Shown here in pieces: positions 5,602 through 48,578 of a DNA stretch of 64,000 nucleotides. The number at the start of each line of letters is the position of its first letter. Position 1 is the first letter of the stretch. Under the pieces are notes generated by a model that worked only from the letters and a program-made list of their open reading frames with translations, was not told where the DNA came from and made no database searches. The stretch is taken from the NCBI GenBank assembly GCA_964465685.1, contig CAYXKK010000002.1, positions 106,852 to 170,851 of the forward strand, read 5' to 3'. The DNA comes from an uncultured Melioribacter sp. (GTDB lineage: Bacteria > Bacteroidota > Ignavibacteria > Kapaibacteriales > Kapaibacteriaceae). Made by a program: the position numbers and the translations under genes.

Positions 5602-7704
5602 TCAGAACCGGAGATCGAGCATCACCATGAAGTTGCGGCCAGCCTGCACGAAGTATGTGGGCACGGTCGATGTACCGTCGAAGGTCGAACCGCCGTTGGT
5701 AACGATCATTCGATCGAGCAGGTTGTTGGCCATCACGCCGATGCGATGTTCCCCTGCGACGTTCCACCACAGACGGGCATTCACGTCGACAACTTCCGGA
5801 AGTACAAGTCCAGCAGCATTAGTAAGATCAGTGAATGACGACGAGATATACCGGATACCAGCTTCGATGGAGAGCTGATCAAGGGGCTGATAGCGGAGCG
5901 TCGCCAGCACCTGTGTTGATGGTGTGAGAATTGGCGTGACGTTGGTAAACACGGTATCGAGGCCGATGTTTTCAGGGGCAAATCGTGCTACGTTCGACGT
6001 CATGAGCGTCGCGGCAATCTCGGCCTGCAACGTGCGATGGAGGCGAACGGTCGACATCACTTCGAGTCCGAGACGACGACTGGATTCGACATTCTTGCGC
6101 AGCTGCACGAACAGCTGATCGATATACGGTCCAATTGGCGCAATCTCGTCGGTGAAGAACATTGCGAACGCTGTTACGTCGAGTGAAATGTCGTCACTCG
6201 CCGTGCGGAATCCGAGTTCAAGGTCATTCACATGCTCCGGACGTACCGTGTTCGGCGTACGGATGACAGGAAGATTCCCATCAGTGATCTGCGTGCCCCC
6301 TAACAGGTCGAACCGGGTCGGCTCCCGACTTGTGCGGCCAAATGATGCATAGATGTCGGACTCGGATGAGAGCGCATATCGTGCACCAACGCGTGGGTTG
6401 AAAAATGCCCAGCGATGCTCAGGAAACGCCTCCGTAACCGCGAGCATGTCCGGTGTCGAGAACGACATCGTCACGTGGCGAACCTGCACGTCAGCGAGGA
6501 AGCTCAATGCTCCAAGTGCATACTCAGCCCGCGCAAAAGCAGACAACTCATTCTTCGTCGTGCGATCATCGTAGTATGGACGGTTGAACTCGGGCGCAAC
6601 GGTCTCCCAGTTGCGACGACGGAATGTGTAGGCATGCAATCCAGCTCGGAGCGTGAGATCGCTCATGCGCGCATCGATGCTTGCCATTGCACCGTAGTGG
6701 CGGTTCTCGAGCGGATAGTTCAGCAGCGTCAAACCCGACGTATCACGGAAGCCGGTGAAGAAATCGCCCCCTGCCCCACCCATGTAGGCCGTAGCAGAGA
6801 GTACAGCGTCTTCGTTCAGCACATGCTGATATGCAAGCGACACAAGATGCTGTCCGAAGTCGTCCACATCCGCACTATCGTTCAGGTTCGTGCGCGGGTC
6901 TGCATCGGCCAGCGCCTTCGGCACCGGAAAATATCCGAGTTCATTCTGTGTTCGACCCCACAGACCAGTGAGTTGAAGCGAGTTTGTGTTCGTAGCATCC
7001 TGCCAGCGGGCTGCAACGTGGGCTGAGTTCGCAGTTGTTCCCGTATGACGTCGATATCCGTCGGTCGAAAGCGTTGTGAATCGTGCATACATATTCACCG
7101 AGCTGTCGATCGATCCCGTGCGCACAGCGGCACTACCTCGCAGCATGTTGAACGAGCCACCCGATAGCTGCACATTTGCCATAGGTTTGCGCGCGTCGCC
7201 GTAGAGAGAGAGCGACGGTGACGTTAACCCGACAGCACCTGCGAAGGATGCTGTGCCGTTGGTACTCAGGCCTGTCCCGCGCTGCACCTGTACCGACGCC
7301 ATGCCGTTCATCAAGTCGCCGATGTTCGAGAAGAACACCCCTTGATCAATCATGTCATTGAGTGGCACGCCATCAAGCGTCACGTTGACACGCGTTTGGT
7401 CGATACCCCGCAGACGGAAGGTTCCGTAGTTCGAGACCGCGGTACCGGATTCCGAGTACGAGATCACCGATGGTACGGTCCGTTCAAGCACGTACTGGAC
7501 GTCCTGTCCGATGTAGAGCCGCTCGACGGCGGCCTTGGTTACCGTGGTCTGCGTCACGGGGTCGGCCGCCTGTGCATAGGGCGACGTCTCTACGCGGATC
7601 TCGCGCATGCGATACGTAGCTGTATCACGAGTAGCCGACGATTGAGCAAAACCTGGTGAAAGTGTGGCACATCCAAGTACCACCAATGCTGCGAGCTTGC
7701 GCAT
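5602..7704 (-). CDS. TonB-dependent outer-membrane receptor
   Basis: 700-aa ORF with signal peptide 'MRKLAALVVLGCATLSPGFAQ', a plug-domain region 'TFRLRGIDQTRVNVTLDGVPLND' and a C-terminal beta-barrel ending in an aromatic residue ('...MVMLDLRF'). Confidence 0.85.
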   Translation of the reverse strand: MRKLAALVVLGCATLSPGFAQSSATRDTATYRMREIRVETSPYAQAADPVTQTTVTKAAVERLYIGQDVQYVLERTVPSVISYSESGTAVSNYGTFRLRGIDQTRVNVTLDGVPLNDMIDQGVFFSNIGDLMNGMASVQVQRGTGLSTNGTASFAGAVGLTSPSLSLYGDARKPMANVQLSGGSFNMLRGSAAVRTGSIDSSVNMYARFTTLSTDGYRRHTGTTANSAHVAARWQDATNTNSLQLTGLWGRTQNELGYFPVPKALADADPRTNLNDSADVDDFGQHLVSLAYQHVLNEDAVLSATAYMGGAGGDFFTGFRDTSGLTLLNYPLENRHYGAMASIDARMSDLTLRAGLHAYTFRRRNWETVAPEFNRPYYDDRTTKNELSAFARAEYALGALSFLADVQVRHVTMSFSTPDMLAVTEAFPEHRWAFFNPRVGARYALSSESDIYASFGRTSREPTRFDLLGGTQITDGNLPVIRTPNTVRPEHVNDLELGFRTASDDISLDVTAFAMFFTDEIAPIGPYIDQLFVQLRKNVESSRRLGLEVMSTVRLHRTLQAEIAATLMTSNVARFAPENIGLDTVFTNVTPILTPSTQVLATLRYQPLDQLSIEAGIRYISSSFTDLTNAAGLVLPEVVDVNARLWWNVAGEHRIGVMANNLLDRMIVTNGGSTFDGTSTVPTYFVQAGRNFMVMLDLRF

Positions 7705-7817
7705 GGTTGACCTCGTTTTCCTTCGCCGGCATTATCCGGATCAGGTTCAAAGAGTTTATTCTCAGCCACCGACCTTCGGTAGCACCTCTAACGGGAGCGC
7801 GAATATAGCGAGTATCT
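7705..7817. promoter_or_regulatory. divergent intergenic region (TonB-dependent receptor <-> murA)
   Basis: 113-bp non-coding gap between divergently transcribed genes. It must hold both promoters; no specific motif was verified. Confidence 0.3.
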
Positions 7818-37672: not shown

Positions 37673-38854
37673 TTAGCGAGTTGGTGTTCGTTCGGTGAAT
37701 GCGCGCGCCACACTGCGAGATTCCTCGTCGATGGCAACGATCTGGTCCAATGACGGATGATCGAGGTGTTCCATGTGTTCCAATGTGTGAGCAATTGTGC
37801 GTGGAATGTCGAGGAAGCCGATGCGCTCCTCAAGAAACGCCGCTACAGCAACCTCATTCGCAGCATTGAGCACGGCACCGGCGGATCCACCCGCGCGCAT
37901 TGCATCATATGCCATGCGGAGACACGGGAAGCGCTCCATGTCGGGCGCCTCAAACGTGAGCTGACCAATCTTGGCAAGATCCATGCGCGGAATGTCAAGG
38001 GGCGCACGATGTGGATATGTGAGTGCGTAGTGAATCGGCAGCAACATCGTCGGCAACCCTAGCTGCGCTTTCACCGAACCATCGACAAACTCCACCATCG
38101 AATGAATGATCGATTGCGGATGCACTACAACGTCGATCTCATCGGCCGACATGCCGAACAACCATCGCGCTTCAATCACTTCGAAGCCTTTGTTCATGAG
38201 CGTCGCAGAGTCGATCGTAATCTTCGCACCCATCGTCCAATTCGGGTGACGCAGCGCCATGGCCGGCGTCACATCCTGCATTGCTTCCTTCGTAAACGTG
38301 CGGAAAGGTCCACCCGAAGCTGTAATCACAAGTCGTGCGATGTCGGAACTCCGCTCACCCACAACGCACTGAAGAATTGCACTATGCTCGGAGTCGACAG
38401 CAACGAGTGTTGCGCCGTGTGGCGCAAGCGCAGGCACGAGTACGCTTCCCGCACTAACGAGTGATTCCTTATTCGCCAGGCCAATGATGTGTCCAGCGCG
38501 GATCGCTGCCATCGTTGGCAATACGCCGCTGAATCCAACCATAGCCGAGAGTACAACATCGTTTTCCGCATCGGCTGCTGCTTCACAAATGCCCTCGTCA
38601 CCACAGAGCACGGGGCCTGAAAACTCCGGACATGCATCGCGAAACGCACGCCATGCGGATTCCTCTCGAAGCGCAACGCCATATGGCGCGTGACGTCGAA
38701 CCTGCTCGACGAGGTCCTGCCAGCGAGTGTTGCACGTGATCCATCGTAGGCGAACATCGCCTGGTGTGCGCGAGAGAATATCAAGCGCTTGACTGCCAAT
38801 TGAGCCCGTTGATCCGAGAATCGTAACCGTGCGTTGGTGCGCGTCGTGTGTCAC
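37673..38854 (-). CDS. dxr: 1-deoxy-D-xylulose-5-phosphate reductoisomerase
   Basis: 393 aa. 'VTILGSTGSIGSQALDIL' is the NADPH site and the remainder matches Dxr. The conserved dxr-rseP adjacency is present. Confidence 0.95.
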   Translation of the reverse strand: MTHDAHQRTVTILGSTGSIGSQALDILSRTPGDVRLRWITCNTRWQDLVEQVRRHAPYGVALREESAWRAFRDACPEFSGPVLCGDEGICEAAADAENDVVLSAMVGFSGVLPTMAAIRAGHIIGLANKESLVSAGSVLVPALAPHGATLVAVDSEHSAILQCVVGERSSDIARLVITASGGPFRTFTKEAMQDVTPAMALRHPNWTMGAKITIDSATLMNKGFEVIEARWLFGMSADEIDVVVHPQSIIHSMVEFVDGSVKAQLGLPTMLLPIHYALTYPHRAPLDIPRMDLAKIGQLTFEAPDMERFPCLRMAYDAMRAGGSAGAVLNAANEVAVAAFLEERIGFLDIPRTIAHTLEHMEHLDHPSLDQIVAIDEESRSVARAFTERTPTR

Positions 38855-40446
38855 TGATACTGCCGTGTAATGTCCTTCGTGCCTGATCCGGCATAACAGC
38901 GGAACTCGCCCGCTTCAATGCGCTCATCCTCACGAAGAGTGACAGAGATGAAGTACGATCGCAACCACTTGCGCAGCGTCTGCGCTTTGTTGCGTTCGAT
39001 GTAGTGGATGATGTACGGGTGCGTTGCAATCGTCACACGCATGCCCCATGTCCGAGCTCGATAGTTGCGCAACCACCGGTCAATTGTCGACACTGCACTT
39101 GCTGCGGAGATCACACGACCAGTACCAAGACAGAACGGACATTCTTCACTCGTGCGCTCAGCCATACTCTGGCGAATACGCTGACGTGTGATCTGCATGA
39201 TTCCAAGCTGCGTGATCGGATAGACAATTGTCTTCGCACGATCTCGCGAGAGCTCTCGCTTCATCTCGGCATACAGCTTCCGCCGGTTTTCCTCCTGCTG
39301 CATATCGATGAAGTCGACAAGCACCATGCCACCAATGTCGCGCAACCGAAGCTGCTTTGCGACTTCACGCATGGCTTCAAAGTTGGACTTCACTGCGTTG
39401 GCTTCTTGTGATCCCTGATTTGAAGCACGACCAGAATTGACATCAACCACCACCATTGCTTCGGTATGATCGATAATCAGGTAGCCACCGCTCTGCAGCG
39501 GGACGCGTCGCGAATGCGTCAGGTGTACATCGCGTTCAATGCCGAAGACGTCAAACATCGGACGTGTGTCAGCAAAGAACTCAAGCTTACCATCAAGGTG
39601 CGGCGCAGTGCGTTGCACATAGGCTTTGAGTTCACGGAAGACCTTGCGATCATCGATCACGACCTGATCGACATCGTCCTTGAAGAGATCGCGCAGAACA
39701 CTGTAGGCAACGTTCTCTTCCTGCTTAAGCAGGATTGGCCCCTTCGCATTGCGAATCTCGCCCTCCATCTCACGCCAGTCTTCCAGCAACGTCTCAAAGT
39801 CGCGTCGCACATCATCTGATGGCAGACCCGATGCCGCAGTGCGAATGATACAGCCCATACCCTCGGGAAGGATCTCGCGTGTGAGTGCACGCAAGCGCTT
39901 GCGCTCGCGCACAGATTGGATCTTGCGAGAGATGCCAATGTTTTCTTCAAACGGGAGCAGCACAACATTCCGTCCGGTGAGACCCACCTTCGTTGTGATG
40001 CGGACACCTTTGGATTGGTAGGCTTCTCGCGTTACTTGCACCACGACCATCTGCTTTGCTTGCAGATTGATCGTAATCTGTCCACTACGTTTTGTCGAAA
40101 ACGTTGGGAGCTTCTTGGCTGTTGATGTCTTTGAGGTGCGGAGCGCGACATCTGCCGTATCGACCGATGTTGATCGCGGACGATCGTCATCATCATCGTC
40201 GGTGGCCACATCTTCCATCGTAGAGTCAACATCGCTGAAATGCAGGAACCCGTCCTGTTCCAACCCGATGTCGACAAACGCAGCGTTCATCCCCTGGACG
40301 ATCTTCGTGACGCGACCTAGGTAGATGTTGCCTACATGGTGCTCGGTGTCGGGAGCTTCTGTGAACAGCTCAACAAGTTTCCCATCTTCCGTGATTGCAA
40401 TCCGGAACTGAGAACCCGATGCGTTAATGAGAATTCGACGAACCAT
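38851..40446 (-). CDS. rng: ribonuclease E/G family (RNase G-like) with acidic insertion in the S1 domain
   Basis: An internal ATG gives 'MVRRILINASGSQFRIAITEDGKLVELFTE...GNIYLGRVTKIVQGMNAAFVDIG', the RNase E/G catalytic N-terminal domain. It carries an 'EDVATDDDDDDRPRSTSVDTADV...' insertion and overlaps dxr in ATGA style. Confidence 0.85.
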   Translation of the reverse strand: MVRRILINASGSQFRIAITEDGKLVELFTEAPDTEHHVGNIYLGRVTKIVQGMNAAFVDIGLEQDGFLHFSDVDSTMEDVATDDDDDDRPRSTSVDTADVALRTSKTSTAKKLPTFSTKRSGQITINLQAKQMVVVQVTREAYQSKGVRITTKVGLTGRNVVLLPFEENIGISRKIQSVRERKRLRALTREILPEGMGCIIRTAASGLPSDDVRRDFETLLEDWREMEGEIRNAKGPILLKQEENVAYSVLRDLFKDDVDQVVIDDRKVFRELKAYVQRTAPHLDGKLEFFADTRPMFDVFGIERDVHLTHSRRVPLQSGGYLIIDHTEAMVVVDVNSGRASNQGSQEANAVKSNFEAMREVAKQLRLRDIGGMVLVDFIDMQQEENRRKLYAEMKRELSRDRAKTIVYPITQLGIMQITRQRIRQSMAERTSEECPFCLGTGRVISAASAVSTIDRWLRNYRARTWGMRVTIATHPYIIHYIERNKAQTLRKWLRSYFISVTLREDERIEAGEFRCYAGSGTKDITRQYQ

Positions 40447-40587
40447 GGGAAATAAAAAAGGCCAAGTTGACCGTGGCGCCTTGTACACATGCTGACCGTT
40501 GCTTCCTTCCGGACCTGGCGGGGTTGGGCCTAGTACAATCGCACGGGACTTGGCCGTGAAATTCACATTCGTAGGGTGGCAAAGATA

Positions 40588-41871
40588 CTACGGTTTTTTG
40601 AATTCGGGCACCAGACCTTGCCAGCACTCCCAATAATCATGCTGAAGTTCTCCTGATTCCATCGCAAATGCTGTAGGACGACACACAAATCGCGTCTCGA
40701 ACATGAAGGCCATGGTGTGCTCAATCTTTGTCGGCTTGAGTTCAGCCTTGGTTGCCTTCGCATACGTATCGGCGTCAGGACCGTGTCCGCTCATGCAGTT
40801 GTGGAGTGACGAGCCCCCTGGCACGAATCCCCCGCCCTCCTTAGCATCATACACGCCTTCGATCAAGCCCATGTACTCATTCATGAAGTTGCGGTGGAAC
40901 CATGGCGGACGGAACGTGTTTTCGGCAACCATCCACCGTGGTGGGAAGATCACAAAATCGATGTTGGCCGTGCCCGGTGTGTCGCTCGGCGACGTGAGCA
41001 CCGTATAGATCGACGGATCTGGGTGGTCGAACGTAACCGTGTTGATGCATTGGAACTTACGCAGATCGTACTTGTACGGCGCATAGTTCCCGTGCCATGC
41101 AACCACGTTTAGGGGTGAGTGGTTGTAAACGCCCTTCCAGAGATTCCCTTGGAACTTGGCAATCACATCAACCATCTCGCTGCGCTCTTCGTACCAGGCT
41201 TCCGGGATCAGAAAATCGCGTGGATACGCTAGTCCGTTCGCGCCGATCGGACCAAGATCCGGCAGACGAAACGGGGCTCCGTAGTTCTCGCAGATGTAGC
41301 CACGGACCGGACCGCTGACTTCGACACGGAACTTGATGCCGCGCGGGATCACGCAGATCTCTTGCGGGTCAACATCCACGATGCCCATTTCCGTGAGAAT
41401 GCGCAGCGAGCCAAGCTGCGGAACGATCAACATCTCGCCATCAGCGTTGTAGAAGAATGTCGACGTCATCGACGTATTCGCCGCGTAGACGTGGATTGCC
41501 GAACCCGTATGGGTGGTCAGATCCCCGCTGCCTGCCATTGTTGCGATGCCCTCGATGAACGTCGTTGGCTTCTCTGGGATTGGAAGGGGGCTCCACCGGA
41601 GCTGATTTGGCGTGGTTTCAACCTCGTTGAACGGCGTCGAGCGGATCAAGCCATTATCGATGCGCTCGTATGGACGGTGCACCACCGAAGGGCGAATGCG
41701 GTACATCCACGACCGTTTGTTGGCATTTCGGGGCGCTGTGAAGGCTGTTCCATTGATTTGCTCAACGTACAGACCAAACGCTGGTTGCTGAGGCGAATTC
41801 CGACCATCGGGAAGCGCTCCTGCAATGGCTTCGGTGGCAACATCATTGCCAAATCCACTCATGTAGCCCAT
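40588..41871 (-). CDS. hmgA: homogentisate 1,2-dioxygenase
   Basis: 427 aa; '[28 protein letters not shown]...' is collinear with HGD cupin-fold enzymes. Confidence 0.9.
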
Positions 41872-41903
41872 TGTCGACCTCGGGTGTATGCAGAAAAACT
41901 ACG

Positions 41904-41977
41904 CGCGCCCAGCAGGAATCGAACCTGCGACCCGCAGCTTAGAAGGCTGCTGCTCTATCCAACTGAGCTATGGGCGC
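41904..41977 (-). tRNA. tRNA-Arg (anticodon UCU)
   Basis: The minus-strand sequence GCGCCCA-TA-GCTC-AGTTGGATA-GAGC-A-GCAGC-CTTCTAA-GCTGC-GGGTC-GCAGG-TTCGATT-CCTGC-TGGGCGC-G folds into a 74-nt cloverleaf with a 7-bp acceptor stem and a GGTTCGATTCC T-arm. The anticodon loop is CU-UCU-AA and no CCA is encoded. Confidence 0.85.
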
Positions 41978-42017
41978 CCAGAGGCGAAAGTTACGGAGGA
42001 AGTGTGTTTCGCCTTGC

Positions 42018-42266
42018 CTAACTCGGCACGATCTCAAATGCCGTAAGTGCCTCGTCAATCACGAGGCGGACAGGGCCGTGGGCGGTAGGAATCACAGCCA
42101 AATCGCCAAGACCTTCGCCTGTCAGCGTAGAAGACTCACGTCGGATGTCCGACAGCCATGCGTAGAGCTGCGGCGACACGGCGACCTCGTGCGGCGGAAC
42201 GCCGTGCTGGTCAACATATCGGTCGATGGAGGTCATCAGTTCCTCGAATGCATCGAACCATTCCAT
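42018..42266 (-). CDS. hypothetical small protein (about 83 aa)
   Basis: ORF 42018..42308 with an internal ATG (MEWFDAFEELMTSIDRYVDQHG...) and no recognisable motif. It is kept only because it fills the gap between tRNA-Arg and rpsA and shows no long antisense ORF. Confidence 0.35.
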   Translation of the reverse strand: MEWFDAFEELMTSIDRYVDQHGVPPHEVAVSPQLYAWLSDIRRESSTLTGEGLGDLAVIPTAHGPVRLVIDEALTAFEIVPS

Positions 42267-44401: not shown

Positions 44402-45703
44402 ATGAATCTTGACGCAATTCTCGACGAACTGTTCGCGATGACGTTTCACGCCGGCATCAAACCTGGCTTAGAGCGTATCACAACGTTGTGCGGGTCTGTG
44501 GGTGACCCACAGGCTCATCTTCCTGTAATCCACGTTGCCGGAACCAACGGTAAGGGCTCGACGTGCTCGATGCTTGCTTCGATCTTCACAACGGCTGGAT
44601 ATAGAACTGGACTCTACACATCGCCCCACATTCGACATTTCCGCGAGCGCATACGCATCGACGGAGTGCCGATTACCGATGAAGAGATTGCCCGCTATGC
44701 AGTTCCTCTGATGAACAGCGCTCGTGAGATCGGCGGCACATTCTTCGAAGTCACCACCGCGATGGCATTGCAGTACTTCGCGGATCGACGTGTGGACGTT
44801 GTGGTGCTTGAGACTGGACTTGGCGGACGCTTAGATGCAACGAACATCGTGCATCCACTGCTGTCGGTAATCACGCAGATCGACATGGATCACATGGAAT
44901 ATCTCGGTACTACGCTTCCAGCAATCGCAGGTGAGAAGGCAGGAATCATCAAACCAGAGACACCAGTAGTGGTCGGCCATCACGGCGCCGACGTGCGGTC
45001 GGTGTTCGAACGCAAGGCCGAGCGCGAGCGTGCACCAATCGTCTTTGCAGACGATGTCGTTGATGTGCAATGCGATCGCATTCTTCCCGACCTTACCATG
45101 TCGGTCGCTGTTACTTCCACTGACGATCTACGGTATCTCCTGACAGATCTTGCAGGTGTCCATCAAACGCGCAACATCGCCACAGTACTCACAGCGCTGC
45201 CCTATCTCCGCACCACGTATTCGATCGACGATGTACACGTTGAGCAGGGGCTACGTCGCGTGCGGGCAATGACTGGACTGGCCGCACGGTGCGAGCTTAT
45301 GCAGACTGCTCCTCCTGTGATCCACGATGTATCGCACAACCCAGGTGGACTGCGTGCGTTAGCCGAAACACTACGAGCTGCTGGCTATGCCGACAATTCG
45401 TTCGACGTTGTGTTCGGCGCAATGTCGGATAAAGATGTCGACGGCATGCTGCGCGAGCTCCTCCCGATCACACGCACGTTGTACTGCTGCTCGCCTCATA
45501 TCCCCCGCAGTATGCCTGTCGATGAGCTTGTTGCACGCGCACGTGCTGTTGGTTACACATCAATCGTTGCATCGGCAAGTGTAGTTGAATCGTACCAATG
45601 CGCTCAAACGAACGAAGCTCCCACAGTTGCCTGCGGGAGCTTCCACGTGATCGATGAAGTTCGTGCGTTATCCGAGCAGGAGCGCAACGATAAACAGGAT
45701 TGA
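44402..45703 (+). CDS. folC: bifunctional folylpolyglutamate synthase / dihydrofolate synthase
   Basis: 433 aa; 'VIHVAGTNGKGSTCSMLASI' is the Mur-ligase P-loop and the remainder is collinear with FolC. Confidence 0.9.
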   Translation: MNLDAILDELFAMTFHAGIKPGLERITTLCGSVGDPQAHLPVIHVAGTNGKGSTCSMLASIFTTAGYRTGLYTSPHIRHFRERIRIDGVPITDEEIARYAVPLMNSAREIGGTFFEVTTAMALQYFADRRVDVVVLETGLGGRLDATNIVHPLLSVITQIDMDHMEYLGTTLPAIAGEKAGIIKPETPVVVGHHGADVRSVFERKAERERAPIVFADDVVDVQCDRILPDLTMSVAVTSTDDLRYLLTDLAGVHQTRNIATVLTALPYLRTTYSIDDVHVEQGLRRVRAMTGLAARCELMQTAPPVIHDVSHNPGGLRALAETLRAAGYADNSFDVVFGAMSDKDVDGMLRELLPITRTLYCCSPHIPRSMPVDELVARARAVGYTSIVASASVVESYQCAQTNEAPTVACGSFHVIDEVRALSEQERNDKQD

Positions 45704-46951
45704 GAAGCCGATCTGGAATTGAATGGTTGCAACGTTGCCCTTGACGAGCGTACGCGCATAAAGATGCTTGCGCATATACGACACGATCCACGCGGCAAAG
45801 AGCGTAGTAATGCCAGCAACACCGTAGAGATACGGATTGTTGAGTACCGTACCCAAATACGCCGTTACGCCTATCGCACCACCGATGAAGAGCATATAGA
45901 ACCACACGGCTGAGCGATAACCGAACGTGACAACCAAATGCGCCTTGCCCGTAGCTGCATCGCCTTCGGTGTCGGGGATCTGATTGATCAACAGAATGTT
46001 GGATGTGAGCAGACCTGCAGGAATGCCGACGAGGAATGCCATCGTTGCAAACGACGACCACAGCTCTGGCGCTGTCGAGGCCGTTGCAACGTAGAACACG
46101 CCTAGTGTGATCAGTGGACCGAAGGCAAGTCCAATCACAATCTCACCCAAGCCGTGACGCGCAACAAGGCGAAGCGGCGGTGCGGTGTAGAAGTAGCCAA
46201 GTGCAAGTCCCGCAAAACCGATTGCAAGCACGCCCGTGCCTACCGCATACGTCAGGTACACACCGATCAGGAACGCAAACAGCGCAAGCGTATTCGCTAC
46301 ACGGAGTGTTCCCTTGAGATCAATCAATCCCAGGAAGATCGATCGCGAGCCACCCGAGTACTGTGTGAAGTACTTGGTGTTCGCTTGGTCTGTGCCACTC
46401 TTGTAATCGAAGTAGTCATTGTAGACGTTGCTGGCGAGGTGAAGGAGTGCAACACCAAAGCACGCCAAGACCACATTGAGAACATTCACGCTGTGATCAA
46501 GCACACCTGCAACGTAGGCAAGCGCGATAAAACACGGCGTGAGTGCCGCTGTGAGGAACGGCGCACGCGTTACGACCAGCCACTTCACAAACTTGGTTGA
46601 TCCCTTGATCGGGACATCAACCGTGCTATCGAGCTCCTCGGTGACTCCGCAGAAGCCAATCTGCACGCCGTTCTTAAAGGTCGGCGTGATGCGGATCTGT
46701 GCGCCGAACAGTTCGCCGTTCTTGCGACGGAAATTTGTTTGACCAACCCACTCGCCTTCTTTCACTGCGGTAGCGAGCCAGCCACCGAGGTTTTGCAAGA
46801 CGATTTCGCCCGGCGAGAAATCACTCACACGCACCTTGCCAATCGTTTCTTCGCGTGAGTATCCGAACATCACTTGCGCCCCGTCGCTGAAGGTCTCAAC
46901 GATGCCTTCCATGTCGCAGGTGATCACAGACTTATCAAGTGCTGTTGCCAC
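45668..46951 (-). CDS. PAS domain fused to UbiA-superfamily prenyltransferase (MenA/DHNA-prenyltransferase-like)
   Basis: 427-aa ORF with a GTG start. Residues 1-~120 form a PAS fold ('SVITCDMEGIVETFSDGAQVMFGYSREETIGKV...GEWVGQTNFRRKNGELFGAQIRITP...NGVQIGFCGV'). The rest is an 8-9 TM UbiA core with the Asp-rich 'NVYNDYFDYKSGTD' motif and second motif 'NQIPDTEGDAATGK'. Confidence 0.8.
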   Translation of the reverse strand: MATALDKSVITCDMEGIVETFSDGAQVMFGYSREETIGKVRVSDFSPGEIVLQNLGGWLATAVKEGEWVGQTNFRRKNGELFGAQIRITPTFKNGVQIGFCGVTEELDSTVDVPIKGSTKFVKWLVVTRAPFLTAALTPCFIALAYVAGVLDHSVNVLNVVLACFGVALLHLASNVYNDYFDYKSGTDQANTKYFTQYSGGSRSIFLGLIDLKGTLRVANTLALFAFLIGVYLTYAVGTGVLAIGFAGLALGYFYTAPPLRLVARHGLGEIVIGLAFGPLITLGVFYVATASTAPELWSSFATMAFLVGIPAGLLTSNILLINQIPDTEGDAATGKAHLVVTFGYRSAVWFYMLFIGGAIGVTAYLGTVLNNPYLYGVAGITTLFAAWIVSYMRKHLYARTLVKGNVATIQFQIGFSILFIVALLLG

Positions 46952-47054
46952 GAGGTCTCCACTTCAATTGGTGATAGATTGATGTCTATGGTCCAGTCGT
47001 ACAAACATACGATGACCGACCCATCGGTCGAAATCGTTGCGGTATCTTTGTGCT
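46952..47054. promoter_or_regulatory. divergent intergenic region (PAS-UbiA gene <-> purH) with a small hairpin
   Basis: About 100-bp gap containing the perfect 6-bp hairpin GACCGA-CCCA-TCGGTC (around 47012-47029) just upstream of purH. It shows no ZTP-riboswitch consensus. Confidence 0.3.
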
Positions 47055-48578
47055 ATGAATGCACTCATCTCCGTCTCCGACAAAACTGGTGTTGTTGAAT
47101 TTGCCCAAGAACTGCACGCTCTGGGCATCCGCTGTATCAGCACGGGCGGAACGGCAAAGGCTCTTGCCGAGGCTGGCGTCCCCGTCACGAAGGTCTCCGA
47201 TCTGACGGGATTTCCCGAGATCATGGATGGTCGCGTCAAGACCCTCCACCCGAAGATCCACGGAGGCTTGCTGGCGGCAATGGACAACCCAGAGCATGTC
47301 GCGCAGATGAACGAGCACGGAATCGAGAAGATCGACATTGTAGTCGTGAACCTCTATCCGTTCGAGCAAACAGTCGCTCGTGCAGGCGCGACGCCGGCAG
47401 AGATTATCGAGAACATCGACATTGGCGGACCTGCGATGGTGCGCGCATCGGCGAAGAATCACGCCCACACGACGATCATCGTTAATCCATCGCGTTACGC
47501 TGACGTCCTTGCAGAACTACGCGCCAACGGCACAACAACAATGCCTCTGCGTACAGAGCTTGCCATGGAGGCCTTTGCACACACAGCGCAATACGATGCA
47601 CGTATCACACAGTGGTTCGCCGAGCAAGGGGCACACGGATTCCTCAACGAATCAGCCATCCCTCTTCGTCGCGATCAATCCCTACGCTATGGCGAGAACC
47701 CGCATCAACAGGCGATGCTGTACGGAAGCTTCACATCGATCTTGAACCAGCTCCATGGCAAGGAACTCTCGTACAACAACATCCTCGATATCGATGCGGC
47801 GATGGGATTGTGCATGGAGTTCGACGAGCCTACAGTAGTCATCGTTAAGCACAATAACCCATGTGGCGTAGGATCGGGAGCAACGCTCGTCGAGGCCTAT
47901 GCAAAGGCATTTGCGACTGACACTGTGAGTCCGTTCGGAGGCATCATCGCGATGAACCGCGAAGTCGACATCACAATGGCCAACGAAATTCACTCGCTCT
48001 TCGCGGAAGTCTTGATTGCGCCGTCGTACACAGAAGAAGCACTCGCTCAGCTCACCAAGAAGAAGGACCGTCGCTTGATGACGGTCAACATGCAGGCATT
48101 CCGTACTGCATCACGCGTTAGCGTTCGTTCGGTCGCCGGAGGTTTTCTTGTGCAAGATGGCGACACAAAGCTGTTCAACGAGGCAGACCTTCGTGTTGTC
48201 ACCGCAACGCAACCAACACCAGACCAACACAAGGCAATGCTCTTCGCATGGAAGATTGCAAAGCACGTCAAGAGCAACGCAATCGTGTACGCAGCCGCTG
48301 ATCGCACGCTCGCTATCGGTGCTGGACAAATGTCGCGCATCGACTCCGCACGCATTGCTGTGCGCAAGGCTGCGGATGCAGGCATTGATCTTGCCGGATG
48401 TGCAGTAGCATCTGATGCATTCTTCCCGTTTGCCGACGGACTCCTGCAGGCAGCCGAAGCAGGTGCATCGTGCGTGATCCAACCAGGCGGCTCTGTTCGC
48501 GACGAAGAAGTCATCGCGGCCGCAAATGAAAAGGGACTCGCAATGATCTTCACCGGCACACGCCACTTCCGTCACTGA
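47055..48578 (+). CDS. purH: bifunctional AICAR transformylase / IMP cyclohydrolase
   Basis: ATG at 47055 gives 'MNALISVSDKTGVVEFAQELHALGIRCISTGGTAKAL', the MGS-like IMPCH domain, followed by the AICARFT domain. Confidence 0.95.
   Translation: MNALISVSDKTGVVEFAQELHALGIRCISTGGTAKALAEAGVPVTKVSDLTGFPEIMDGRVKTLHPKIHGGLLAAMDNPEHVAQMNEHGIEKIDIVVVNLYPFEQTVARAGATPAEIIENIDIGGPAMVRASAKNHAHTTIIVNPSRYADVLAELRANGTTTMPLRTELAMEAFAHTAQYDARITQWFAEQGAHGFLNESAIPLRRDQSLRYGENPHQQAMLYGSFTSILNQLHGKELSYNNILDIDAAMGLCMEFDEPTVVIVKHNNPCGVGSGATLVEAYAKAFATDTVSPFGGIIAMNREVDITMANEIHSLFAEVLIAPSYTEEALAQLTKKKDRRLMTVNMQAFRTASRVSVRSVAGGFLVQDGDTKLFNEADLRVVTATQPTPDQHKAMLFAWKIAKHVKSNAIVYAAADRTLAIGAGQMSRIDSARIAVRKAADAGIDLAGCAVASDAFFPFADGLLQAAEAGASCVIQPGGSVRDEEVIAAANEKGLAMIFTGTRHFRH

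What the first reader, a model, noticed from the sequence alone, without database searches (positions are those of the whole stretch)
45668..46951. PAS sensor domain fused in-frame to a UbiA-superfamily membrane prenyltransferase
One continuous 427-aa ORF encodes a soluble N-terminal PAS fold of about 120 aa, followed directly by a complete UbiA/MenA-type polyprenyltransferase core with both Asp-rich motifs (NDYFDYKSGTD and DTEGD). UbiA enzymes (UbiA, MenA, ChlG/BchG, CtaB) are normally stand-alone polytopic proteins of about 290 aa. A covalently attached ligand- or redox-sensing PAS module implies direct sensory control of quinone or tetrapyrrole/lipid prenylation. I do not know this architecture as a described family. 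The gene starts with GTG and diverges from purH.
Basis: partly seen in the sequence, partly recalled or inferred. Interest (0 to 1): 0.7.

Follow-up and report, generated by a model that had tools for sequence, protein, structure and literature searches.

The report
MenA-type prenyltransferase with N-terminal PAS domain
This is a real, intact gene for a membrane enzyme of the kind that attaches the lipid tail to vitamin K2 (menaquinone), carrying a built-in sensor-type PAS domain; hundreds of bacteria share the fusion, but databases list it only as an ordinary prenyltransferase and I found no study of it.

Summary
Window 45668-46951 (-) is one 427-aa GTG-started ORF with a soluble PAS domain (aa ~5-106), a 10-residue linker and a complete nine-helix UbiA/MenA core carrying both Asp-rich motifs.

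It is not a frameshift artefact. The same colinear protein occurs in an independent assembly, in more than 200 90%-identity clusters, and relatives in up to 417 species genomes.

Carriers belong to Ignavibacteria/Kapaibacteria, Chlorobiota, Bacteroidota (including cultured Phaeodactylibacter) and Marinimicrobia/Fidelibacterota.

The core is MenA/UBIAD1-like. All 34 positions conserved in the nearest unfused MenA-like proteins are retained. Three of four Marinimicrobia PAS-fused relatives tested pass NCBI's MenA equivalog cut-off, but the window protein does not (46 vs 102 bits).

The PAS domain is usually more conserved than the enzyme core. It lacks the LOV, heme-His and Aer-type FAD signatures, has a near-invariant Cys12 predicted to face the pocket, and lies on the cytoplasmic side with the active site.

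Best reading: a menaquinone prenyltransferase with a built-in cytoplasmic regulatory PAS module. The sensing role is inferred, not shown.

The architecture is common and generically annotated, yet I found no paper describing it. Verdict: new variant of a known kind, moderate interest.

The parts
45668..46951 (-). Whole gene: PAS-fused MenA-type prenyltransferase, 427 aa plus stop, GTG start
   Evidence: ORF list; Pfam and NCBIfam; the identical protein is called in an independent assembly
46957..46960 (-). Shine-Dalgarno-like GGAG, 5 nt upstream of the GTG start
   Evidence: Read directly from the sequence. Homologues align from residue 1-7, so the start is about right
46634..46939 (-). Cytoplasmic PAS domain, aa ~5-106 (strands 7-13, 17-21, 68-75, 81-93, 96-106)
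   Evidence: PAS_9 33.8 bits > 27 and TIGR00229 29.2 > 22.9. AF2 secondary structure. Foldseek matches to 3lyx, Aer 8dik (rmsd 1.7-2.1 A) and NifL 2gj3
46916..46918 (-). Cys12 codon (TGC) in strand A-beta, in the family motif I-T-C-D; predicted to face the pocket
   Evidence: Present in 52 of 57 diverse family members. Pocket-facing orientation is inferred from my own hand alignment to the LOV 'VITD' strand, not measured
46808..46831 (-). Family signature R41-V-S-x-F45-S-P-G48 at the E-alpha/F-alpha position where other PAS domains hold their cofactor
   Evidence: Of the eight residues, all but D44 and P47 are invariant in 117 sequences. R41 and F45 are >=90% conserved across the whole family. 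The segment aligns to Aer 'NMVRHPDMP'
46649..46651 (-). Cys101 codon in strand I-beta (G-x-C-G-V-T)
   Evidence: Invariant in 117 close homologues and present in 45 of 57 across the whole family
46604..46633 (-). Ten-residue linker (aa 107-116) between the PAS domain and the first helix of the MenA core
   Evidence: AF2 shows coil with block pLDDT 96 and 92 for residues 101-120. L107, V111 and I115 are the majority residues in 38-39 of 57 sequences
45671..46603 (-). Complete MenA/UBIAD1-type core, aa 117-427: N-terminal helix 117-128 (W124, R129, F132 as in E. coli MenA 'W-L-E-S-L-R-P') plus nine transmembrane helices
   Evidence: PF01040 99.2 bits. Best NCBIfam models are all MenA. UBIAD1 is the best solved relative, E 2.6e-13. 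27% identity to E. coli MenA from residue 124. 34 of 34 MenA-conserved positions retained
46388..46420 (-). First Asp-rich motif N178-D-Y-F-D182-Y-K-S-G-T-D188 at the cytoplasmic end of TM2
   Evidence: Sequence; invariant N178, D179, D182, G186, T187 and D188
45959..45973 (-). Second Asp-rich motif D327-T-E-G-D331 in the cytoplasmic loop between TM6 and TM7
   Evidence: Sequence; D327 and D331 invariant
45614..45643 (-). 13-bp hairpin 25 nt downstream of the stop codon, inside the 3' end of convergent folC; possible terminator
   Evidence: Consensus scan only; not evidence of function
46952..47036 (.). 85-bp divergent intergenic region shared with purH; the promoter(s) should lie here
   Evidence: ORF coordinates. 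No sigma-70-type match was found, as expected if this phylum uses other promoter consensus sequences

Best explanation
The gene encodes a MenA-type enzyme, 1,4-dihydroxy-2-naphthoate (DHNA) polyprenyltransferase, which performs the membrane step of menaquinone synthesis. A small cytoplasmic PAS domain has become permanently attached to the N-terminus of this enzyme.

Shown here: the PAS domain, the 10-residue linker and the full nine-helix core form one polypeptide. The PAS domain lies on the cytoplasmic face, the same side as the two Asp-rich motifs that bind Mg2+ and prenyl diphosphate. The fusion is old and conserved across the Fibrobacteres-Chlorobi-Bacteroidetes (FCB) group of phyla. The PAS domain is under at least as strong constraint as the catalytic core.

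Inferred: the PAS domain docks on the cytoplasmic cap loops of the core. It carries a hydrophobic, aromatic-lined pocket with a conserved Cys12 and Arg41. It modulates prenyl transfer in response to a small aromatic ligand (DHNA or a naphthoquinone are the obvious candidates) or to thiol redox state. This would couple quinone synthesis to the state of the quinone or precursor pool.

A natural PAS-less subclade indicates that the PAS domain is accessory or regulatory rather than part of the catalytic machinery.
For: Enzyme identity:
- The best NCBIfam hits are all MenA models.
- The best solved relative is UBIAD1.
- All 34 positions conserved at >=85% in the 75 nearest unfused MenA-like proteins are identical in the fused family.
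- Marinimicrobia PAS-fused relatives are 45% identical to the window protein over the full length. Three of the four tested pass the TIGR00751 MenA equivalog cut-off (114.0, 108.3 and 115.9 vs 102.15; the fourth scores 101.8).
- NCBI and JGI name them DHNA octaprenyltransferase.

The fusion is real and ancient:
- Searches show the same colinear protein widely.
- The purH/folC/rpsA synteny in 27-28 loci suggests a vertically inherited housekeeping gene.

Topology: positive-inside count of 6 vs 0, and no hydrophobic segment in aa 1-115.

Integration of the two domains:
- pTM is 0.86 and 0.83 in two independent models, with linker pLDDT above 90.
- PAS identity exceeds core identity in most pairs, for example 0.55 vs 0.40 for Marinimicrobia.
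- The conserved PAS signature sits where other PAS domains hold cofactors.
- Family-specific invariant residues R261, R265 and R400 lie in cytoplasmic loops; N406 lies near the cytoplasmic end of TM9 and T187 and T334 sit within or next to the Asp-rich motifs.

PAS dispensable for catalysis: a genuine PAS-less subclade (317 aa, upstream gene 45 bp away) is 57-61% identical to fused members and passes the MenA cut-off.

Precedents:
- DHNA is an allosteric feedback effector of MenD, and MenA is rate-limiting in B. subtilis (PMC11487629).
- The PAS cysteines of ArcB are oxidised and reduced by quinones (PMC11620690).
Against: - The window protein itself fails every MenA equivalog cut-off: TIGR00751 46 vs 102.15 and NF004751 105 vs 264.
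- No men gene lies in the window or in about 1.4 Mb of flanks of 86 related loci, so no genomic association supports the pathway assignment.
- I could not test whether carriers also have a canonical MenA.
- No ligand, cofactor or regulation is shown.
- The known cofactor signatures (LOV Cys, heme His, Aer-type FAD residues) are absent, so the PAS domain may bind nothing.
- Model coordinates and predicted aligned error (PAE) were not available, so PAS docking is inferred only from pTM and pLDDT.
- Soluble domains often look more conserved than lipid-facing helices, which weakens the conservation argument.
Confidence: 0.5

Rival explanations
1. The PAS domain is a non-sensing structural module. 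It dimerises or stabilises the enzyme, or docks soluble menaquinone-pathway enzymes (for example the DHNA-CoA thioesterase or MenB) so that DHNA is handed directly to the membrane enzyme. No signal is sensed.
For: - No known cofactor signature is present.
- Both faces of strands H-beta and I-beta are conserved, as expected for a fixed protein-protein interface.
- High pTM and linker pLDDT suggest a rigid arrangement.
- PAS domains commonly dimerise (established knowledge).
Against: - The residues I predict to face the pocket (S8, I10, C12, T72, F74, G102, T104) and the R41/F45 motif at the usual ligand site are among the most conserved. A pure scaffold does not need this.
- A PAS-less subclade exists.
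Confidence: 0.25
2. The protein is a neofunctionalised MenA paralogue that prenylates a different aromatic acceptor (a specialised quinone, pigment or signalling molecule). The organism's real MenA is encoded elsewhere.
For: - The window protein scores far below all MenA equivalog cut-offs.
- There is family-specific sequence near the active site: Y194, R261, the R265 insertion, T334 and R400.
- There is no linkage to men genes.
- Only a minority of FCB species carry it: at most 417 hits among 185,579 species genomes.
Against: - All 34 MenA-conserved positions are retained.
- Three of four tested members of the same family in Marinimicrobia pass the MenA cut-off.
- There is one copy per locus, and housekeeping synteny is conserved in 27-28 loci.
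- No second UbiA-family gene lies in any flank.
Confidence: 0.18
3. The fusion is an assembly, frameshift or gene-calling artefact that joins two separate genes.
For: None found.
Against: - The identical 427-aa product is called in an independent assembly.
- The best 80 genome loci and more than 200 protein clusters from NCBI, JGI, ENA and Logan are colinear.
- The linker is conserved and confidently modelled.
Confidence: 0.01

Closest known systems
MenA (1,4-dihydroxy-2-naphthoate polyprenyltransferase; TIGR00751 / PRK06080) and its eukaryotic counterpart UBIAD1
   Same: - Nine-helix UbiA fold.
- NDxxDxxxGxD and DxxxD motifs.
- N-terminal W-x-x-x-x-R-P/A-x-F/T helix.
- All 34 positions conserved in the nearest unfused MenA-like proteins.
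- UBIAD1 is the best solved relative.
- 27% identity to E. coli MenA.
   Different: - Carries an extra 116-residue N-terminal PAS domain plus linker.
- The window member scores 46 bits against a MenA cut-off of 102.
- Has a one-residue insertion (R265).
- Has family-specific invariant residues on the cytoplasmic side: R261 and R400 in loops, N406 near the cytoplasmic end of TM9.
ArcB-type PAS domains that read the quinone pool through cysteines (also EvgS, and TodS inhibited by menadione)
   Same: A cytoplasmic PAS domain tethered to the membrane, with two well-conserved cysteines, in a protein whose business is the quinone pool.
   Different: - The output is an enzyme on the same chain, not a kinase.
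- A profile of this PAS domain does not align to ArcB at all.
- The cysteines sit on different elements: A-beta and I-beta here, versus the ArcB positions, which by my own manual placement (not a tool result) are the B-beta/C-alpha loop and H-beta.
- This is an analogy of mechanism only.
FAD-binding PAS domains of Aer and NifL
   Same: These are among the closest solved PAS folds (rmsd 1.7-2.2 A) and among the best sequence matches after 3lyx. W58 aligns with a Trp of Aer.
   Different: The Aer segment 'RHPDMP' aligns with F45-S-P-G-E-I. The Asn of 'VKNRRKNG' aligns with the conserved F74 (47 of 57, L in 9). My recollection that these Aer residues hold FAD is from memory, not tested here. A flavin held in the Aer manner is therefore unlikely.
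MenD allosteric feedback by DHNA (M. tuberculosis, S. aureus)
   Same: The only described post-translational control of menaquinone synthesis, using a pathway aromatic acid as effector and arginine contacts. The PAS pocket here has a near-invariant Arg41 (52 of 57) and aromatic residues.
   Different: It is a different enzyme with a different fold, and the effector site is not a PAS domain. Whether DHNA binds this PAS domain is untested.

Membership tests
UbiA prenyltransferase superfamily (PF01040) | Profile match above the Pfam gathering score | tested here: met
   99.2 bits vs 34.2, aa 137-394
UbiA prenyltransferase superfamily (PF01040) | Two Asp-rich motifs (NDxxDxxxD-type and DxxxD) on cytoplasmic loops of an 8-9 helix bundle | tested here: met
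   aa 178-188 and 327-331, invariant in 117 sequences. Nine helices in the AF2 model. Foldseek matches to 6m31, 8djk, 4tq4 and 4od4
MenA, DHNA polyprenyltransferase (NCBIfam TIGR00751 and PRK06080 equivalogs) | Score at or above the curated equivalog cut-off | tested here: not met
   Window protein: TIGR00751 46.0 vs 102.15; NF004751 105.3 vs 264. Marinimicrobia PAS-fused members of the same family do pass TIGR00751 in three of four cases (114.0, 108.3, 115.9; fourth 101.8)
MenA, DHNA polyprenyltransferase | Retention of residues conserved among MenA-type proteins | tested here: met
   34 of 34 positions conserved at >=85% in the 75 nearest unfused MenA-like proteins are identical
MenA, DHNA polyprenyltransferase | Catalyses DHNA + polyprenyl-PP -> demethylmenaquinone, and is the organism's only such enzyme | not testable with these tools
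   No whole genome of a carrier could be read. No men genes in the flanks
PAS domain (PF13426 PAS_9 / TIGR00229) | Profile match above the curated cut-off, and the five-stranded antiparallel sheet with flanking helices | tested here: met
   33.8 vs 27 and 29.2 vs 22.9. AF2 strand and helix order. Foldseek matches to PAS chains with probability 1.00
LOV (flavin-Cys adduct) PAS | GxNCRFLQ motif with the adduct-forming Cys on E-alpha | tested here: not met
   The corresponding segment is G-K-V-R-V-S-D-F-S-P-G, with no Cys there. The correspondence is my own placement by eye
Heme-binding PAS (FixL / EcDOS type) | Conserved proximal His on F-alpha | tested here: not met
   There is no His in aa 1-116 of the window protein and no family-wide conserved His. 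One clade does have His at positions 54, 76 and 97
FAD-binding PAS (Aer / NifL type) | Flavin-contacting residues of the E-alpha/F-alpha segment and the G-beta Asn | tested here: not met
   These positions align to F45, S46, G48 and F74. Which residues contact FAD is from my memory of the Aer literature
ArcB-type redox PAS | Two redox-active cysteines at the ArcB C180 and C241 positions | tested here: not met
   Two conserved Cys exist (C12, C101), but the profile does not align to ArcB. By my manual placement the Cys lie on different elements

The most novel reading that the evidence does not exclude
The PAS domain is a built-in sensor of the quinone pathway itself. Its aromatic pocket, with Cys12 and Arg41, would bind or react with DHNA or a naphthoquinone, or report thiol/quinone redox state. 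It would then allosterically open or close the cytoplasmic cap of the MenA core. This would be the first one-polypeptide sensor-prenyltransferase and a direct post-translational feedback of the respiratory quinone pool on its own synthesis. It would operate in abundant environmental lineages (Marinimicrobia, Ignavibacteria/Kapaibacteria, Saprospiraceae).
Probability: 0.3. Interest if true: 0.75.

Novelty: new variant of a known kind. Interest (0 to 1): 0.52.

Why it matters
How bacteria adjust the size of their respiratory quinone pool after translation is poorly understood. From the literature read here, the only described mechanism is allosteric inhibition of MenD by DHNA. MenA is the committed membrane step and is reported as rate-limiting in B. 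subtilis.

A MenA with a permanently attached, highly conserved PAS domain gives a directly testable handle on that question. It occurs in cultured Phaeodactylibacter and in very abundant uncultured lineages. Nature has also provided a PAS-less control.

It would also be an unusual case of a PAS domain controlling a polytopic biosynthetic membrane enzyme, rather than a kinase, cyclase or channel.

On the practical side, automated annotation currently splits this one family between 'MenA' and 'UbiA family prenyltransferase' and ignores the PAS domain. This can mislead metabolic reconstructions of these phyla.

Tried and rejected
1. Gene-neighbourhood inference. I clustered ORFs from 84 loci. 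Only the Kapaibacteria-type clade keeps purH/folC/rpsA/Lon/HgmA around the gene, and nothing is conserved across clades. Neighbours specific to other clades (acyl-CoA dehydrogenase, TspO, sigma factor and others) are uninformative.

2. Search for men genes near the fusion. tblastn with E. coli MenB, C, D, E, F and H against about 1.4 Mb of flanks found only one 34%-identical crotonase-family hit.

3. Second UbiA-family gene in the window or flanks. None was found.

4. Phylogeny of the core. My own neighbour-joining trees did not recover the fused proteins as one clade. Only the grouping of the PAS-less proteins with the Marinimicrobia fused proteins had modest support (64/100) (one search timed out). 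Single versus multiple origin of the fusion is therefore unresolved.

5. Direct-coupling analysis to find PAS-core contacts. With 321 sequences (Neff about 79), the top inter-domain pairs (for example F82-A302 and F82-V369) join the cytoplasmic PAS domain to periplasm-side residues. This is phylogenetic noise, so the analysis is inconclusive.

6. Comparison with AlphaFold DB to find annotated entries with the same architecture. The library was unavailable.

7. Taxon names for the nearest unfused relatives. The sources give none.

8. Alignment to the ArcB PAS domain. No match.

9. Testing whether carriers also have a canonical MenA. This was not possible.

10. The third large protein search was left unused, because its top-120 output could not be directed to the carrier genomes.
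Full report
THE OBSERVATION

The mechanical ORF list gives 45668..46951 on the minus strand, 427 aa, GTG start. A GGAG lies 5 nt upstream of the GTG. purH (47037-48578, +) diverges from it across 85 bp. folC (44402-45703, +) converges on it with a 36-nt overlap of the 3' ends.

Pfam calls UbiA (99.2 bits, cut-off 34.2, aa 137-394) and PAS_9 (33.8 bits, cut-off 27, aa 8-100). NCBIfam's PAS S-box model also passes (29.2 vs 22.9).

NOT AN ARTEFACT

The identical 427-aa product is called on a contig of an unrelated assembly (Logan SRR14454018). The best 120 homologue clusters (52-96% identity, about 415-430 aa, from NCBI, JGI, ENA and Logan) all carry PF13426+PF01040.

A scan of one genome per species found 417 genomes encoding a relative. 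The best 80 loci match essentially the whole query length in 73 cases; seven are cut short at one end, five of them by a contig end. A search of 1.84 billion 50%-identity representatives found about two dozen clusters that match residues 7-426 in one stretch, down to about 29-32% identity.

WHO HAS IT

Titles of the genome records name several groups:
- Ignavibacteria, Candidatus Kapaibacterium/Kapaibacteriota and non-phototrophic Chlorobiota MAGs.
- Bacteroidota, including Saprospiraceae/Lewinellaceae with the cultured Phaeodactylibacter xiamenensis KD52 and P. luteus KCTC 42180.
- Marine Flavobacteriales MAGs and single-cell genomes, and Chitinophagales.

A search started from what looked like the nearest unfused relative (P0162) instead uncovered a second large clade of 422-425-aa PAS-fused proteins from Marinimicrobia/Neomarinimicrobiota/Fidelibacterota. 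These are mostly from marine metagenomes. One of them is 45% identical to the window protein over the full length.

The window itself is 97% identical at this gene to a MAG contig labelled 'uncultured Melioribacter', and it shares that contig's synteny. The organism is an Ignavibacteria/Kapaibacteria-type member of the FCB group.

WHAT THE ENZYME PART IS

- Every strong NCBIfam hit is a MenA model. Chlorophyll synthase and archaeal lipid prenyltransferase models score far lower.
- The best solved relative by sequence is UBIAD1, the eukaryotic MenA-type enzyme (E 2.6e-13).
- Foldseek places the C-terminal 300 residues on UbiA-family structures (6m31, 8djk, 4tq4, 4od4).
- E. coli MenA aligns from residue 124 onward at 27% identity. 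The alignment begins at the W-L-x-x-x-R-P motif that starts canonical MenA. The PAS domain is therefore added in front of a complete MenA, not inserted into one.
- In an alignment with the 75 nearest unfused, roughly 300-aa MenA-like proteins, all 34 positions conserved at >=85% in those proteins are identical in the fused family.

The one negative is that the window protein does not reach any MenA equivalog cut-off (TIGR00751 46 vs 102.15). NCBI's pipeline consistently names such members only 'UbiA family prenyltransferase'. However, three of four tested Marinimicrobia PAS-fused members of the same family do pass TIGR00751 (114.0, 108.3, 115.9; the fourth 101.8). These are named DHNA octaprenyltransferase by NCBI submitters and JGI. 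I therefore read the family as MenA with a PAS domain, and the window protein as a divergent member.

WHAT THE PAS PART IS

AlphaFold2 with 117 homologues gives pLDDT 89.9 and pTM 0.86. The model has PAS strands at 7-13, 17-21, 68-75, 81-93 and 96-106, a coil linker at 107-116 with pLDDT above 90, and then nine long helices. A second model, of a Marinimicrobia member with its own alignment, gives the same layout (pLDDT 86.7, pTM 0.83).

The nearest solved PAS domains are 3lyx (a structural-genomics PAS domain of a GGDEF protein), the FAD-PAS domain of Aer (rmsd 1.7-2.1 A) and the FAD-PAS domain of NifL. No solved chain has both folds.

Known cofactor signatures are missing:
- There is no Cys at the LOV position.
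- There is no His at all in residues 1-116, and no family-wide conserved His.
- The Aer segment 'RHPDMP' and the Asn of 'VKNRRKNG' align to F45-S-P-G-E-I and to the conserved F74.

The family instead has its own signature:
- I-T-C12-D on strand A-beta.
- R41-V-S-x-F45-S-P-G at the E-alpha/F-alpha position where other PAS domains hold ligands.
- W58-L, T72-x-F74, and G99-x-C101-G-V-T104 on I-beta.

Mapping by hand onto the LOV 'VITD' and 'FIGVQ' strands puts S8, I10, C12, F100, G102 and T104 on the pocket side and C101 on the outer face of the sheet. That mapping is my inference, not a measurement.

TOPOLOGY AND COUPLING

Residues 1-115 contain no hydrophobic segment. Loop charges follow the positive-inside rule, with 6 K+R on the side of the PAS domain and both Asp-rich motifs and 0 on the other side. 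The PAS domain is therefore cytoplasmic and next to the active-site cap.

In pairwise comparisons across the family the PAS domain is usually more conserved than the core. Examples are 0.82 vs 0.70 for a Kapaibacteria-type homologue and 0.55 vs 0.40 for Marinimicrobia. Lipid-facing helices do tend to drift, which weakens this argument.

Residues invariant in the fused family but variable in unfused relatives include Y194, R261, R265 (an inserted residue), T334, R400 and N406. Most lie in cytoplasmic loops; N406 lies near the cytoplasmic end of TM9.

A small, genuine PAS-less subclade (317 aa; the upstream gene ends 45 bp away) groups with the Marinimicrobia fused proteins (57-61% identity; 64/100 bootstraps). 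It passes the MenA cut-off. In its four members T119, K120, T187 and T334 have changed, while Y194, R261, R400 and N406 are kept. This is a weak hint that the former positions are the PAS-coupled ones.

GENOMIC CONTEXT

There is no operon logic. The purH / PAS-MenA / folC / rpsA arrangement is kept in 27-28 Kapaibacteria-type loci but not in other clades. No men gene and no second UbiA-family gene occurs in the window or in the flanks of 86 loci. The rest of the window is housekeeping: NuoC, AroA, LptF/G, Dxr, RseP-like protease, SurE, RNase G, Lon-like protease, UvrD and others.

MECHANISM, AND HOW SURE I AM

I put about 0.75 on the core being a DHNA-type (menaquinone) prenyltransferase. I put about 0.45 on the PAS domain being a ligand- or redox-responsive regulator rather than a passive structural module. 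The joint statement gets about 0.5.

The most economical model has three parts. The PAS domain sits on the cytoplasmic cap. It binds a small aromatic molecule in a Phe/Trp-lined pocket, with Arg41 available for a carboxylate and Cys12 available for redox or Michael chemistry. It then biases cap opening and closing.

DHNA is a known allosteric effector in this pathway, and MenA a reported bottleneck (PMC11487629). The PAS cysteines of ArcB are known to be oxidised and reduced by quinones (PMC11620690). Both are analogies; the ArcB PAS domain does not even align.

The rivals are a non-sensing scaffold or dimerisation role (0.25), a paralogue with another acceptor (0.18) and an artefact (0.01).

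KNOWN OR NEW

Four full-text searches found no paper on a PAS-UbiA or PAS-MenA fusion. That library does not cover most subscription journals. Databases hold hundreds of members with the domain pair precomputed and a generic enzyme name. This is therefore not a new kind of system and not a rare one. It is an uncharacterised, widespread variant of a well-known enzyme.

The sensory-control reading is plausible but unproven. The implied rarity is wrong.

Noticed in passing
window 7701-7799 (-), upstream of 5602-7704 (-): A TPP riboswitch (69.4 bits, gathering score 54.3) sits directly upstream of a TonB-dependent receptor gene (Plug plus beta-barrel). This suggests thiamine-regulated outer-membrane uptake.
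   Followed up: partly
window 40457-40555 (-): The bacterial small SRP RNA (65.5 bits) overlaps the 5' end of the mechanical RNase E/G ORF 38851-40566. The true start of that gene must therefore lie further downstream.
   Followed up: no
window 41903-41977 (-): tRNA-Arg (TCT) lies between the homogentisate dioxygenase gene and rpsA. It also explains the spurious ORF 41362-42021.
   Followed up: no
window 40588-41871 (-): Homogentisate 1,2-dioxygenase lies 4 kb from the prenyltransferase and stays in the neighbourhood in 18 Kapaibacteria-type loci. Homogentisate is the acceptor of other UbiA-family enzymes, but rpsA and folC lie in between and the linkage is absent in other clades. It is probably coincidence.
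   Followed up: partly
window 45668-45703 and 45614-45643: The 3' ends of folC and the PAS-MenA gene overlap by 36 nt. A 13-bp hairpin that could terminate the PAS-MenA transcript lies inside the folC coding end. In a 72%-identical relative the two genes do not overlap.
   Followed up: no
P0143 (551 aa); P0188 (505 aa); P0172, P0180 and P0201 (459-508 aa): Other N-terminal additions to MenA-like cores exist. P0143 has an EF-hand pair plus PAS plus UbiA. P0188 has a weak PNPOx-like (flavin-binding split-barrel) match plus UbiA. Several have 150-215-residue N-terminal regions with no Pfam match. The cytoplasmic N-terminus of MenA seems to be a recurrent attachment point for putative sensor or cofactor domains.
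   Followed up: partly
Marinimicrobia-type members (e.g. P0340), PAS positions 54, 76, 84, 97 in window numbering: About 16-20 of 57 sampled sequences have His at positions 54 (F-alpha), 76 and 97, and Cys at 84, where the window clade has N, R, Q and A. The A3 consensus suggests these are the Marinimicrobia-type members; co-occurrence in the same sequences was not checked directly. A clade-specific metal or heme site is conceivable, and an F-alpha His is where heme-PAS domains ligate iron.
   Followed up: no
L085 10001-10954 (P0295/P0162 clade): A natural PAS-less version (312-317 aa) is most similar to the Marinimicrobia fused proteins. A PF27139 membrane-protein gene ends 45 bp upstream. 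It is a ready-made evolutionary control for the role of the PAS domain.
   Followed up: partly
L060, L064, L071, L075, L076 (Phaeodactylibacter-type loci), about 80-560 bp upstream of the gene: A TspO/MBR (tetrapyrrole-binding membrane protein) gene lies immediately upstream of the PAS-MenA gene in five Saprospiraceae loci, and an acyl-CoA dehydrogenase gene lies downstream in nine.
   Followed up: no
L010, L021, L028, L032, L036, L045: Contigs carrying Kapaibacteria-type versions of this gene (62-70% identity) are deposited under labels such as Patescibacteria, Hyphomicrobiales and Bradyrhizobiaceae. L010, L021 and L032 also share the purH/folC synteny. This looks like binning contamination or mislabelling of the MAGs.
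   Followed up: no
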